Source: Escherichia coli
GTDB lineage: Bacteria > Pseudomonadota > Gammaproteobacteria > Enterobacterales > Enterobacteriaceae
Assembly: GCF_017348835.2 (NCBI RefSeq)
Contig: NZ_CP071375.1
Reading direction: 5' to 3' (one strand)
DNA: 64,000 nt
Positions within the stretch are counted from its first letter, which is position 1. Each line of letters starts with the position of its first letter. Under the pieces are notes generated by a model. The model was not told the DNA's origin and ran no database searches. It saw only the letters and a list, made by a program, of their open reading frames with translations. Of the stretch, positions 43,945 to 48,611 are shown in pieces. The translations under genes were made by a program, and so were the position numbers.

Positions 43945-46835
<2,891 letters not shown>

Positions 46836-46844
46836 GCAACCGTG

Positions 46845-46924
46845 CCGGATGCGGCGTGAACGCCTTATCCGGCCTACATGTCGCACGAACTATGCAGGCC
46901 CGATAAGCACTGCGCATCGGGCAA
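46845..46924. repeat. REP/BIME element downstream of ascB, at the left edge of the accessory insertion
   Basis: gccggatgcggcgtgaacgccttatccggcctac plus a second, inverted, more degenerate unit. Confidence 0.7.
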
Positions 46925-46948
46925 TCTGGAGTTTGGCATCAGTCAAAA

Positions 46949-47368
46949 TCAAAGAAACCATTCCGGCTTAACGCCAAATCGGGCTGAAAGTGCCTTAATG
47001 TGGGATATTGTCAGGGATCGTTGTCCAGACAAAATCTGACTAACCAGGGATTTAGAGCCGATTTCGTTCTTCAAATCCGCATAGGTCAGATTATGTTGAT
47101 CAATCAACGTGCGAAGTAACGCCACGCCAACCGGCATTGCCGCAACGGCTTTGTCGAACTCTGCAAACTTTTCGTTGTTGTTTTCATACTCTGCAATGCG
47201 GCTCGCCAGAAAGTCGATAAGTGGATTGGTGTCATCTTCTTCAATCAAATATTCGACCAGTTCCAGTGCTTCACGATAATCATCTTCTGAGTCACTGCCT
47301 CCCAGAAAGGGGACTGCATTGACCAGTTCTCTTGTTGCTTTAACAGCGCGTGCAGCATTAGCAGTCAT
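46949..47368 (-). CDS. HigA-like antitoxin (XRE-type HTH at the C-terminus)
   Basis: 139-aa ORF resembling E. coli HigA (AVPFLGG...ALELVEYL...EFAEF...LLRTLIDQ...GSKSLVSQILSGQRSLT); overlaps the upstream toxin gene by 4 nt. Confidence 0.8.
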   Translation of the reverse strand: MTANAARAVKATRELVNAVPFLGGSDSEDDYREALELVEYLIEEDDTNPLIDFLASRIAEYENNNEKFAEFDKAVAAMPVGVALLRTLIDQHNLTYADLKNEIGSKSLVSQILSGQRSLTISHIKALSARFGVKPEWFL

Positions 47369-47676
47369 TCTTTGTTCTCTCTGTAGTAACGTGTCAGTTT
47401 GTCATACTCTGCGTGATTCGTTATGTGCTTCACAAAGAACCGCTTATTAACAAAGTTTATGTAGGCAATAACCCTAAGATTGTTCCCGCCGACATCCAGA
47501 ACGTACCATTTGTTGCGATATTTAAAATTGTCGAGGTTGGGAAACGCCGTTCGCATTTCTTCTGGCGTAGAAAAATCCGTTTCCTTAATAACCCGATACA
47601 ATGCCTGAAGAGCCAGAGCGTCGTTAGGATATTTACGCGCAGACTCTTCAAATGGCACTTTAGAAATGATGTGCAT
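47365..47676 (-). CDS. HigB-like mRNA interferase toxin (RelE/ParE superfamily)
   Basis: 103-aa ORF resembling E. coli HigB (MHIIS...KYP...FPNLDNFKY..K.YV.DVGGNNLRV...EYD); toxin-first order and 4-nt overlap with the antitoxin. Confidence 0.8.
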   Translation of the reverse strand: MHIISKVPFEESARKYPNDALALQALYRVIKETDFSTPEEMRTAFPNLDNFKYRNKWYVLDVGGNNLRVIAYINFVNKRFFVKHITNHAEYDKLTRYYRENKE

Positions 47677-47680
47677 TTTT

Positions 47681-47784
47681 AAGTTTTAACTTCCTTATAG
47701 TAAGTAAACAGCCACATCTGCGAGTTCTATCCTCATGTGTTCGGAAACTATAGCTCATCAAATCCAAGTTCACAATATGTAAAC
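47681..47784 (-). promoter_or_regulatory. Putative higBA-like promoter/operator region
   Basis: Minus-strand -35 ttgtga, 16-bp spacer, -10 tatagt; inverted repeats gttcaca-ata-tgtaaac (47768-47784) and aagtt-tt-aactt (47681-47692) overlap the -35 and RBS regions. Confidence 0.35.
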
Positions 47785-47837
47785 ACTTGCGCGTGATATA
47801 ATTACCCCCAAAATCCTCATAACCACTCTGCAAAAAG

Positions 47838-48611
47838 TCAGTTCTGATTCACCCCATCAAGCACATCCCCCTTTATCAAGCAACGCTGCGTCAGCGACAG
47901 ATCTTCCGTTTGTGTGTCGCGCCCGGCGATGGGTTTGAGGACGAGTTTACGGTTGGGGGTATAAGTAAAGCGCGTGAGCGCGGGATAGCTTAACTTGCCA
48001 AACCAGCCGTGAACACGCTGCCATTTGGCGTCTTTTACCTGATACAGACTGGTTATCCAGTAACCAGAATTAAACTGCATATCCAGCAATTGCGTGTGAC
48101 CATTGCCTTGTAAATCCAGCAAATCATCTACGCCAGTTTTGCTTGCAGTGTAGAATCCCCAGGGTTCAAAGACACAGGGACGGCCTTCGTGCGTGAACGT
48201 CATGAGGATTAAATGTGCATAGGGCGCCAGACCATTACCGGCACTTGGCAACCAGATAACCAGATCCTGAATGCCGTTACGATCCAGATCGGCGCGATAG
48301 AGCTGCCCTTTGCCCGCCATATTTGCCAGCAACCCCACTGGCACCGTCCAGGATTTACCCGCGCGGTCTTTAGCGGTTAATTGCCAGTAATCCTCTTCAT
48401 TTGGCATCTTCTCAAGCGTCACGCCAGCAACGCCGATTTTTCTAAAATGCCAAGTTTGCTCGGTATAATAAGGCATGGTCAGGAGAGGTTTCAGCGCCCG
48501 CTTTTGCGCATATTCGCTGCCACTCATTGGCAGATATTCGGTAAAGCTGGTGGCCTGTGCAGACTGCACTAAGCTCAATAAAAAAGCGCACATCCCTGTT
48601 CTGATGTTCAA
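47838..48611 (-). CDS. Exported protein of unknown function with Sec-type signal peptide and two DxDxNG-like repeat motifs
   Basis: 257-aa ORF; TTG start at 48611 or ATG at 48593; signal-like CAFLLSLVQSAQA; motifs ADLDRNGIQDLVIW and DLLDLQGNGHTQLLD; Trp-rich. Confidence 0.6.
   Translation of the reverse strand: MNIRTGMCAFLLSLVQSAQATSFTEYLPMSGSEYAQKRALKPLLTMPYYTEQTWHFRKIGVAGVTLEKMPNEEDYWQLTAKDRAGKSWTVPVGLLANMAGKGQLYRADLDRNGIQDLVIWLPSAGNGLAPYAHLILMTFTHEGRPCVFEPWGFYTASKTGVDDLLDLQGNGHTQLLDMQFNSGYWITSLYQVKDAKWQRVHGWFGKLSYPALTRFTYTPNRKLVLKPIAGRDTQTEDLSLTQRCLIKGDVLDGVNQN

What the first reader, a model, noticed from the sequence alone, without database searches (positions are those of the whole stretch)
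47681..47784. Candidate autoregulatory operators upstream of the higB-like toxin gene
The AT-rich 161-bp spacer before the toxin gene has a plausible sigma-70 promoter on the minus strand (ttgtga, 16 bp, tatagt). It also has two inverted repeats: gttcaca-ata-tgtaaac overlapping the -35, and aagtt-tt-aactt between the RBS and the start codon. These are the kind of palindromes an HTH antitoxin would bind to repress its own operon.
Basis: seen in the sequence. Interest (0 to 1): 0.4.

Follow-up and report, generated by a model that had tools for sequence, protein, structure and literature searches.

The report
One real HigA operator, one chance palindrome
Upstream of an E. coli higB/higA-like toxin-antitoxin operon, the palindrome over the -35 box is a conserved antitoxin-binding site, the palindrome near the start codon is an accident of an 8-base insertion, and the second operator that relatives carry has decayed here: an ordinary self-regulated toxin-antitoxin promoter.

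Summary
The window is E. coli. A higB-like toxin gene (47365-47676, -) and a higA-like antitoxin gene (46949-47368, -) lie between ascB and hycI.

Within the 161-bp spacer alone, neither palindrome exceeds chance.

**IR1 is a real operator (O1).** GTTTACAtatTGTGAAC (47768-47784) overlaps the -35.
- It matches GTTYACA-N3-TGTRAAC, a 17-bp motif found upstream of higB in 21 related loci from other genera.
- It scores 26.4 of 29.3 bits on a matrix built without the window.
- It is identical in a second E. coli allele whose spacer is otherwise only 49% identical.
- In diverged subfamilies, including K-12 HigA, the half-site changes together with the recognition helix while the 7-3-7 geometry is kept.

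**IR2 is not an operator.** aagtt-tt-aactt is absent from all relatives and from the other E. coli allele. It arose from an 8-nt insertion that moves the ribosome-binding site from 4 to 12 nt before the ATG.

Most relatives have O2 abutting the -10. Here it is degenerate.

This is a new member of a known kind, of low interest. Binding and repression are inferred, not shown.

The parts
47768..47784 (-). Its right half contains the -35.
   Evidence: Exact match to GTTYACATWWTGTRAAC, derived from related loci. It scores 26.4 of 29.3 bits on a matrix trained without the window and is the best site in 64 kb by 14 bits. It is identical in class A and class B E. coli alleles, whose flanks are otherwise 49% identical. 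No variation in 7 class A alleles.
47770..47775 (-). -35 hexamer TTGTGA
   Evidence: Promoter scan, 17-nt spacer. The homologous TTGTAA lies inside O1 at the same spacing in relatives.
47747..47752 (-). -10 hexamer TATAGT
   Evidence: TATAGT columns are at least 80% conserved in 17 aligned related loci, 15 nt after O1 as here.
47724..47746 (-). Decayed remnant of the ancestral second operator O2 (TTCCGAACACATGAGGATAGAAC), directly after the -10
   Evidence: Aligns with O2 plus leader of Kluyvera and other Enterobacteriaceae loci. No matrix score above -8 bits here. It holds 4 of the 13 variable spacer columns among E. coli alleles.
47693..47709 (-). Weak O2-like sequence GTTTACTTACTATAAGG: intact left half-site, degenerate right half. 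Probably not a functional site.
   Evidence: 12 of 17 matches to the consensus. It scores 1.8 bits, against at least 18 bits for true sites.
47689..47697 (-). Shine-Dalgarno sequence TAAGGAAGT for higB, 12 nt before the ATG
   Evidence: Read from the sequence. The same sequence lies 4 nt before the ATG in class B alleles.
47681..47692 (.). Not an operator; a by-product of an 8-nt insertion or duplication (TTAAAAC TTAAAAA) between the Shine-Dalgarno sequence and the ATG.
   Evidence: Absent from all related loci and from class B (GTTAAAATG versus GTTAAAACTTAAAAATG). Matrix score -3.6 bits. This class of inverted repeat is expected by chance. A 2-nt loop cannot form an RNA hairpin, and the leader fold z-score is +0.30.
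47365..47676 (-). higB-like toxin gene (103 aa)
   Evidence: PF09907 HigB_toxin, E = 1.4e-23. 40% identical to K-12 HigB.
46949..47368 (-). higA-like antitoxin gene (139 aa), C-terminal HTH. Its start overlaps the higB stop (ATGA).
   Evidence: HTH_3 at residues 85-138. 46% identical to K-12 HigA. Matches PDB 5IFG/6JQ4 at E = 2.5e-35. The recognition helix GSKSLVSQILSG is invariant in all motif-bearing loci.

Best explanation
The spacer carries the sigma-70 promoter of a chromosomal higB-higA-like operon: -35 TTGTGA, 17 nt, -10 TATAGT, and an inferred transcription start near 47740.

One intact operator, O1 (GTTTACAtatTGTGAAC, 47768-47784), overlaps the -35. A dimer of the HigA-like antitoxin, alone or with HigB, most likely binds it. 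Its two C-terminal helix-turn-helix motifs would sit on half-sites one helical turn apart, exclude RNA polymerase from the -35, and so repress its own operon.

The ancestral layout, kept in most relatives and in diverged subfamilies, has a second copy, O2, abutting the -10 and covering the transcription start. In the E. coli chromosomal alleles O2 has decayed and the leader is about 35 nt longer. Repression here should therefore rest on O1 alone.

The second palindrome (47681-47692) is not an operator. It results from an 8-nt insertion that widens the gap between the Shine-Dalgarno sequence and the ATG from 4 to 12 nt, which probably lowers toxin translation.

Shown here: motif conservation, position, co-variation with the recognition helix, and the decay of O2. 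Inferred: binding by HigA, repression, the transcription start, and the translational effect.
For: 1. Motif and layout. 21 related loci from Enterobacterales and one Desulfuromonadales MAG carry GTTYACATWWTGTRAAC upstream of higB. 17 of them have two copies, 38 bp apart in 16 and 36 bp in one: O1, 15 nt, TATAGT, then O2 immediately.
2. Footprint. In the alignment of those 17 loci, only the O1, -10 and O2 columns reach 80% conservation.
3. Score. A matrix from 15 unique sites, built without the window, gives the window's O1 26.4 bits. The next best site in 64 kb scores 12.2, and true sites score at least 18.
4. Linkage to higB. In 45 fetched loci (L001-L045), the motif (at most 2 mismatches) occurs only upstream of higB. 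Loci that lack higB lack it.
5. Two E. coli alleles. Class A (747 genomes) and class B (344 genomes) spacers are 49% identical apart from a shared 19-mer containing O1. In 1000 shuffles the longest shared run was 12. Both place a -10 15 nt after O1.
6. Co-variation at fixed 7-3-7 geometry and fixed promoter position:
   - helix SLVSQILSGQR with half-site GTTYACA (this family);
   - SLVSRILNGTR with GTTTCCA;
   - SNVSNILNGRR with GTTTTCA;
   - K-12 SMVSRVLSGKR with GTTGCCA;
   - Acinetobacter SVISEILSGKR with TATYGCA.
7. Precedent. K-12 HigA represses its own mapped promoter, and its inverted repeats were proposed as binding sites (PMC2814082).
8. IR2. It is absent from relatives and from class B, scores poorly, and belongs to a class expected by chance.
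Against: - There are no binding, footprint, reporter or transcription-start data for this locus or its close relatives.
- Within E. coli class A, zero variation in O1 is not significant: 13 variable columns in about 174, so P(0 in 17) is about 0.28.
- With O2 lost, higB deleted in roughly 550 other genomes, and the Shine-Dalgarno sequence displaced, the module may be decaying. O1 could then be a recent relic rather than a site under selection.
- The co-variation rests on one or a few loci per subfamily.
- That a single operator suffices for repression is an assumption.
Confidence: 0.8

Rival explanations
1. One reading: both palindromes are antitoxin operators. One overlaps the -35 and one lies between the ribosome-binding site and the start codon, giving two-site repression.
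For: Two-operator promoters are the rule in this family and in K-12 higBA. IR2 is invariant in the 7 class A alleles examined.
Against: IR2 (AAGTT-AA-AACTT, 5-2-5) shares neither sequence nor geometry with the 7-3-7 operator and scores -3.6 bits. It is absent from all related loci and from class B E. coli alleles, where the sequence is GTTAAAATG. Its class occurs in 57% of shuffles. The family's real second operator lies next to the -10, not at the ribosome-binding site.
Confidence: 0.04
2. O1 is an inherited but no longer used relic. The E. coli chromosomal module is decaying and the promoter is effectively unregulated or silent.
For: O2 is degenerate in both E. coli allele classes. About 550 genomes have lost higB and the promoter but keep higA. 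The Shine-Dalgarno sequence is displaced by 8 nt in class A. Conservation of O1 within class A is not statistically informative.
Against: O1, the -35, the 17-nt spacing and a -10 survive intact in two allele classes whose remaining spacer has diverged to 49% identity. This is hard to explain without selection. Toxin and antitoxin reading frames are intact. Other natural single-operator relatives exist in Pantoea and Mixta, which keep O2 only.
Confidence: 0.12
3. The O1 palindrome is bound by a host factor other than the antitoxin, or acts at the RNA level as a leader structure or small RNA, rather than as a HigA operator.
For: No direct binding data exist. O1 contains a TGTGA pentamer that resembles a CRP half-site (my reading of the sequence).
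Against: The motif travels with the module into unrelated chromosomal and plasmid contexts and into different orders of bacteria. The half-site co-varies with the antitoxin recognition helix. O1 has no second CRP half-site at the required spacing (sequence inspection). O1 lies upstream of the inferred transcription start, the leader RNA fold z-score is +0.30, and there is no Rfam match in the spacer.
Confidence: 0.04

Closest known systems
E. coli K-12 HigB-HigA (YgjN/YgjM) and its autoregulated promoter (Christensen-Dalsgaard et al. 2010, PMC2814082; HigA structures 5IFG, 6IRP, 6JQ4)
   Same: - Toxin-first operon with an ATGA overlap.
- PF09907 toxin, 40% identical.
- Antitoxin with an N-terminal dimerisation and toxin-binding domain and a C-terminal HTH, 46% identical.
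- 17-bp 7-3-7 palindromes of the form GTTnnnA-N3-TnnnAAC.
- One palindrome overlaps the -35 and one abuts the -10.
   Different: - The half-site is GTTYACA here and GTTGCCA in K-12. The K-12 operators score -1.1 and 5.6 bits on this family's matrix.
- The recognition helix differs (SQILSGQRS versus SRVLSGKRK), so cross-regulation is unlikely.
- In K-12 the -35 lies in the left half of O1, and the operators are 29 bp apart rather than 38.
- The window allele has lost O2 and has a leader of about 64 nt.
Close relatives of this module in Kluyvera, Leclercia, Mangrovibacter, Yokenella, Phytobacter, Pantoea, Photorhabdus and Xenorhabdus chromosomes and on Klebsiella plasmids such as pK195_rmpA2
   Same: - HigA 65-82% identical, with an identical recognition helix.
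- Same O1 motif, -35, 17-nt spacer and -10.
   Different: - 17 of the 21 chromosomal relatives, and the one fetched Klebsiella plasmid locus (L041), carry an intact O2 directly after the -10 and a short leader (O2 at -35 to -29 from the ATG).
- The window has only a decayed O2, a leader about 35 nt longer, and the 8-nt insertion that creates IR2.
Salmonella Typhimurium SehA-SehB (HigBA-like; PMC7160566)
   Same: According to the literature, SehB is an antitoxin with a C-terminal HTH, 46% identical to K-12 HigA. It binds and represses its own promoter, which is said to carry two palindromes on the -35 and -10 boxes.
   Different: Not compared by sequence here. SehB is 142 aa, and the positions of its conserved residues imply insertions or deletions relative to this ungapped 139-aa family. 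The original paper that describes the palindromes (PMC3868539) is marked retracted.
Proteus vulgaris Rts1 HigB-HigA and Pseudomonas aeruginosa HigBA/GraTA operators (PMC12266136, PMC6987408)
   Same: Same logic: the antitoxin dimer binds inverted repeats that overlap the -35 and -10 of a toxin-first operon.
   Different: Those antitoxins have an N-terminal HTH (PMC6987408), and their operator sequences and geometry are unrelated (for example TTAAC GTTAA). From my own knowledge, not tested here, their toxins also belong to a different family.

Membership tests
HigBA type II toxin-antitoxin, K-12 YgjN/YgjM lineage | Toxin gene first, antitoxin second, in one operon | tested here: met
   higB 47365-47676 and higA 46949-47368 are on the same strand with an ATGA overlap.
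HigBA type II toxin-antitoxin, K-12 YgjN/YgjM lineage | Toxin belongs to Pfam HigB_toxin (PF09907) | tested here: met
   83.3 bits against a cut-off of 27, E = 1.4e-23. 40% identical to K-12 HigB.
HigBA type II toxin-antitoxin, K-12 YgjN/YgjM lineage | Antitoxin of about 138 aa with a C-terminal HTH (XRE/HTH_3) domain, homologous to K-12 HigA | tested here: met
   HTH_3 at residues 85-138. 46% identical over 134 aa. PDB 5IFG_B at E = 2.5e-35.
HigBA type II toxin-antitoxin, K-12 YgjN/YgjM lineage | Palindromic operator overlapping the operon's promoter | tested here: met
   O1 at 47768-47784 overlaps the -35. It is conserved across 21 related loci and co-varies with the recognition helix.
HigBA type II toxin-antitoxin, K-12 YgjN/YgjM lineage | Two operators: one at the -35 and one abutting the -10 over the transcription start | tested here: not met
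   The window has a single site. The position after the -10 holds a degenerate remnant, and the best other spacer site scores 1.8 bits. This feature is typical of the family rather than strictly defining: 4 relatives also have one site.
HigBA type II toxin-antitoxin, K-12 YgjN/YgjM lineage | Antitoxin binds the operator and represses transcription | not testable with these tools
   Needs EMSA or footprinting and reporter assays. Precedent exists only for K-12 HigA (PMC2814082).
HigBA type II toxin-antitoxin, K-12 YgjN/YgjM lineage | Toxin arrests growth (ribosome-dependent mRNA cleavage) and is neutralised by the antitoxin | not testable with these tools
   Not assayed. A related HigB-like toxin, SehA, is reported to act on RNase III instead (PMC12817084), so the activity should not be assumed.
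Proteus/Pseudomonas-type HigA (N-terminal HTH) | HTH at the N-terminus of a roughly 100-aa antitoxin | tested here: not met
   The HTH is at residues 85-138 of 139.
PD-Lambda-2 anti-phage defence system (PADLOC) | A HigB-like A protein together with a roughly 400-aa B protein and the system's other components | tested here: not met
   The toxin matches PD-Lambda-2_A (E = 1.5e-15). The antitoxin covers only positions 9-115 of the 402-position B profile. The neighbouring 257-aa protein has no match.
Structured cis-regulatory leader RNA or small RNA | Stable or conserved RNA secondary structure, or a match to an Rfam family | tested here: not met
   Leader minimum free energy -17.4 kcal/mol, z-score +0.30. 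No Rfam match in 47369-47837 at E <= 1.

The most novel reading that the evidence does not exclude
The E. coli chromosomal alleles may be a natural series of step-wise "taming" of a plasmid-type HigBA module. The steps would be loss of the second operator, a longer leader, an 8-nt insertion that displaces the ribosome-binding site of the toxin (class A only), and finally deletion of the promoter plus higB, leaving an orphan higA in about 10% of genomes.

Alongside this, the 7-3-7 half-site (positions 4-6) co-varies with the HigA recognition helix across subfamilies. That gives a readable operator code which would keep co-resident HigA paralogues, such as K-12 HigA, from cross-regulating.
Probability: 0.35. 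Interest if true: 0.4.

Novelty: new member of a known kind. Interest (0 to 1): 0.25.

Why it matters
The practical gain is modest.
- It fixes the operator of an uncharacterised HigBA paralogue. The paralogue is found whole in about 20% of complete E. coli genomes, including a Nissle-derived strain, and is common on Klebsiella plasmids.
- It removes a false operator call.
- It shows that the E. coli copies have lost the second operator that relatives keep.
- The sequence series (two operators, O1 only, O2 only, fused operators, orphan antitoxin) and the helix/half-site pairs give ready-made constructs. They could be used to test what a second operator contributes to toxin-antitoxin autoregulation, and how paralogous antitoxins avoid cross-talk.

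None of this would surprise a specialist in toxin-antitoxin systems.

Tried and rejected
1. **RNA-level role for IR2 or for the 14-nt imperfect repeat around the start codon.** The leader fold is no better than shuffles (z = +0.30), IR2's 2-nt loop cannot form a hairpin, and there is no Rfam match. Rejected.
2. **The 12/17 O2-like sequence at 47693-47709 as a displaced functional O2.** It scores 1.8 bits against at least 18 for true sites. Rejected as a full site; a half-site contribution cannot be excluded.
3. **Within-species polymorphism as a test of O1.** Seven class A alleles give too few variable sites. Uninformative.
4. **Literature search for this locus or motif.** No paper holds the protein accessions or the motif strings. 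The K-12 HigA-DNA structural papers are not in the searchable library.
5. **SehAB of Salmonella as a possible direct relative.** I could not obtain the sequence or the palindromes (they are only in figures), and the source paper is retracted. Left as a literature-only comparison.
6. **CRP-site reading of the TGTGA in O1.** No second half-site at the required spacing, by inspection. Rejected.
7. **L043 (Klebsiella pRYC11).** The HigA-like gene follows a RelE/ParE toxin plus a second HTH gene and has different palindromes. It is not comparable and was left out of the co-variation set.

Full report
**Context**

The window is E. coli chromosome (100% identical to strain PE164). Reading along the + strand:
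- ascB, 45399-46835 (+)
- REP-like repeats
- a 139-aa HTH protein, 46949-47368 (-)
- a 103-aa protein, 47365-47676 (-)
- the 161-bp spacer in question, 47677-47837
- a 257-aa hypothetical protein, 47838-48611 (-)
- hycI (-)

The 103-aa protein is a Pfam HigB_toxin (PF09907, 83 bits, E = 1.4e-23). The 139-aa protein has a C-terminal HTH_3 domain. They are 40% and 46% identical to K-12 HigB and HigA (YgjN/YgjM). The only solved relatives are K-12 and Shigella HigA (5IFG, 6IRP, 6JQ4, 5YCL; E about 1e-35). The toxin gene comes first and its stop overlaps the antitoxin start (ATGA). This is a paralogue of K-12 higBA, which sits elsewhere on the chromosome.

**Check of the observation**

All the listed elements are present at the stated coordinates.
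- -35 TTGTGA: 47775..47770
- -10 TATAGT: 47752..47747
- IR1 gttcaca-ata-tgtaaac: 47768-47784, 7-bp arms with one mismatch
- IR2 aagtt-tt-aactt: 47681-47692

The hexamer spacer is 17 nt, not 16.

Taken alone, none of this exceeds chance.
- The promoter scan finds 4 sites in 1.9 kb, against 2.6 +/- 1.7 in shuffles.
- Inverted repeats of IR2's class occur in 57% of dinucleotide shuffles of the spacer.
- Repeats of IR1's class occur 3 times here, against 1.5 expected (P = 0.22).

The question can only be settled by comparison with other loci.

**Related loci**

A scan of one genome per species returned 30 loci that encode relatives of the antitoxin. 21 of them have a full-length higB directly upstream. 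These come from Leclercia, Kluyvera, Mangrovibacter, Yokenella, Phytobacter, Citrobacter, Pluralibacter, Pantoea, Mixta, Photorhabdus, Xenorhabdus and one Desulfuromonadales MAG, with HigA 48-82% identical.

Upstream of higB, all 21 carry the 17-bp palindrome GTTYACA-N3-TGTRAAC.
- 17 have two copies, 38 bp apart start to start in 16 of them and 36 bp in the Desulfuromonadales locus L031.
- The layout is O1, 15 nt, TATAGT, then O2 immediately, then about 18 nt, then ATG.
- The -35 (TTGTAA) is the right half of O1, 17 nt from the -10.

In a MAFFT alignment of the 17 two-site loci, the only columns at least 80% conserved are O1, the -10 and O2. Everything upstream and between is unconserved. This is a clear phylogenetic footprint.

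The motif (at most 2 mismatches) occurs nowhere else in the fetched loci. It is missing from loci that have lost higB.

**IR1 is O1**

The window's IR1, read on the coding strand, is GTTTACAtatTGTGAAC. This is an exact match to the consensus, the only one in 64 kb.
- A position weight matrix built from the 15 unique sites in relatives, without the window, gives it 26.4 of a possible 29.3 bits.
- The next best 17-mer in the whole window scores 12.2. True sites score at least 18.
- Its position is homologous to O1 in relatives: the -35 lies within its right half, and the -10 follows 15 nt after it.

A second E. coli allele gives independent support. 344 genomes lack the 257-aa gene and have a different 166-bp spacer between hycI and higB (class B). 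The class A and class B spacers are 49% identical in a global alignment, yet they share an identical 19-mer, GTGTTTACATATTGTGAAC. The longest shared run in 1000 shuffles was 12. In class B a -10 (TACTAT) again lies 15 nt after O1.

**Why the antitoxin is the likely ligand**

The recognition-helix segment GSKSLVSQILSG is invariant in every locus that carries this motif, including the 48%-identical Desulfuromonadales protein. In diverged subfamilies the same 7-3-7 geometry and the same promoter positions are kept, but the half-site changes with the helix:

| Locus | HigA identity | Helix | Half-site / operators |
|---|---|---|---|
| This family | 65-82% (one at 48%) | SLVSQILSGQR | GTTYACA |
| Klebsiella plasmid L042 | 54% | SLVSRILNGTR | GTTTCCA-aga-TGGAAAC |
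| Serratia entomophila plasmid L044 | 50% | SNVSNILNGRR | GTTTTCA-act-TGAAAAC at -73 and a near copy at -35 |
| K-12 HigA | 46% | SMVSRVLSGKR | GTTGCCA-atc-TGGCAAC and ATTGCCA-att-TGTCAAC, the second abutting the -10 TATCAT |
| Acinetobacter plasmid L045 | 34% | SVISEILSGKR | TATTGCA-aaa-TGCGATA, twice |

K-12 HigA is known to repress its own mapped promoter, and its inverted repeats were proposed as the binding sites (PMC2814082). The half-site centres are 10 bp apart, which suits a dimer of HTH domains (established knowledge of HTH repressors). Binding and repression at this locus remain inferences.

**IR2 is not an operator**

- It has a different geometry (5-2-5) and no resemblance to the motif (-3.6 bits).
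- It is absent from all relatives.
- It is absent from class B E. coli, where the sequence is TAAGGAAGTTAAAATG. In the window it is TAAGGAAGTTAAAACTTAAAAATG.

The palindrome is thus created by an 8-nt insertion, apparently a duplication of TTAAAA. Its visible consequence is that the Shine-Dalgarno sequence TAAGGAAGT sits 12 nt rather than 4 nt before the ATG. From general knowledge of spacing optima, this should reduce toxin translation; that is inference, not tested here. An RNA role is unlikely: a 2-nt loop cannot close a hairpin, the leader folds no better than shuffles (z = +0.30), and there is no Rfam match.

Directly after the -10, where relatives have O2, the window has TTCCGAACACATGAGGATAGAAC.
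- The Nissle-type allele (L034) has GTTCCGAACATATAAGGATAGAAC. This aligns with O2 plus leader of Kluyvera and related loci (TATAGT-GTTC..ACAT..TAA..GGATAG..GCAGATG) but with insertions, deletions and substitutions.
- It scores below -8 bits.
- It holds 4 of the 13 variable spacer columns among seven class A alleles. O1, the -35 and the -10 have none.
- Further downstream, GTTTACTTACTATAAGG (47693-47709) keeps one half-site but scores only 1.8 bits.
- Class B also has only O1.

The E. coli chromosomal alleles are therefore single-operator derivatives with a leader about 35 nt longer. Other single-site relatives exist: Pantoea and Mixta keep only O2, and one MAG has O1 and O2 fused by a 38-bp deletion.

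**Population picture**

Of 5,426 complete E. coli genomes:
- 747 carry the window's arrangement (class A).
- 344 carry class B.
- About 550 carry a deletion that removes the promoter and nearly all of higB but keeps higA (class C).
- Others carry smaller remnants.
- K-12 has none of it.

The family is also common on plasmids: 2,495 PLSDB records, 2,061 of them Klebsiella. One example is a virulence-type plasmid with the intact two-operator promoter.

**Verdict**

The finding is a real but ordinary autoregulatory region of a HigBA-type module. One of the two proposed operators is right and well supported by comparison with other loci. The other is a chance by-product of an insertion. The true second operator of the family has been lost in this lineage.

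I found no publication on this paralogue or its motif. It fits an established mechanism, so I class it as a new member of a known kind, with interest about 0.25.

Noticed in passing
window 47677-47697; L032 2618-2640: Class A alleles, including the window, have an 8-nt insertion between the Shine-Dalgarno sequence and the higB ATG (gap of 12 nt, against 4 nt in class B). This may attenuate toxin translation.
   Followed up: partly
L033 2454-2523 (E. coli bR_120_Kylling) and about 550 other genomes: An orphan higA. A deletion removes O1, the promoter and all but the last ~25 nt of higB, leaving higA 70 bp downstream of the 257-aa gene. Roughly 10% of complete E. coli genomes carry this form.
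   Followed up: partly
window 47838-48611 (-): A 257-aa hypothetical protein with an N-terminus that looks like a signal peptide (MNIRTGMCAFLLSLVQSAQA). It has no Pfam, NCBIfam or PADLOC match. It is present in class A and C alleles and absent from class B and K-12, so ascB-hycI is a variable spot.
   Followed up: no
window 47679-47717 and 47695-47736 (-): Two small upstream ORFs lie in the inferred leader. One (MWLFTYYKEVKT) starts at an ATG that aligns near the start region of relatives and stops 2 nt before the higB ATG. The other has 13 codons. Their significance is unknown, and they are not conserved in class B.
   Followed up: no
L041, L042, L044, L045, L001: Across subfamilies of C-terminal-HTH HigA, the operator keeps a 7-3-7 layout. 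Positions 4-6 of the half-site change together with the recognition helix (GTTYACA, GTTTCCA, GTTTTCA, GTTGCCA, TATYGCA). This is a possible recognition code.
   Followed up: partly
window 47365-47676 and 46949-47368: The toxin matches PADLOC PD-Lambda-2_A (E = 1.5e-15). The antitoxin matches the first ~115 positions of the 402-position PD-Lambda-2_B profile. So the pair is related to part of a phage-defence system but is not a complete one.
   Followed up: no
L032 2693-2721: In class B the operator is embedded in a longer 13-3-13 near-palindrome (ACGGGTGTTTACAtatTGTGAACACCCGT), directly downstream of hycI on the same strand. No T-run follows it.
   Followed up: no
L009; L019; L024: Other signs of decay in relatives. 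In L009 a 38-bp deletion fuses O1 and O2 and removes the -10. In L019 (Kluyvera genomosp. 3) higA is frameshifted. In L024 (Xenorhabdus khoisanae) higB is truncated at the 5' end, with the two operators shifted into that region.
   Followed up: no
L002, L017: Contigs labelled as Collinsella sp. and Citrobacter sp. MAGs encode a HigA 99% identical to the E. coli protein. They are probably E. coli contigs placed in the wrong bins.
   Followed up: no
window 46830-46975: REP-type repeats between ascB and higA give sub-threshold matches to Rfam naRNA4 (RF02564; 41.9 bits against a gathering score of 59.5).
   Followed up: no
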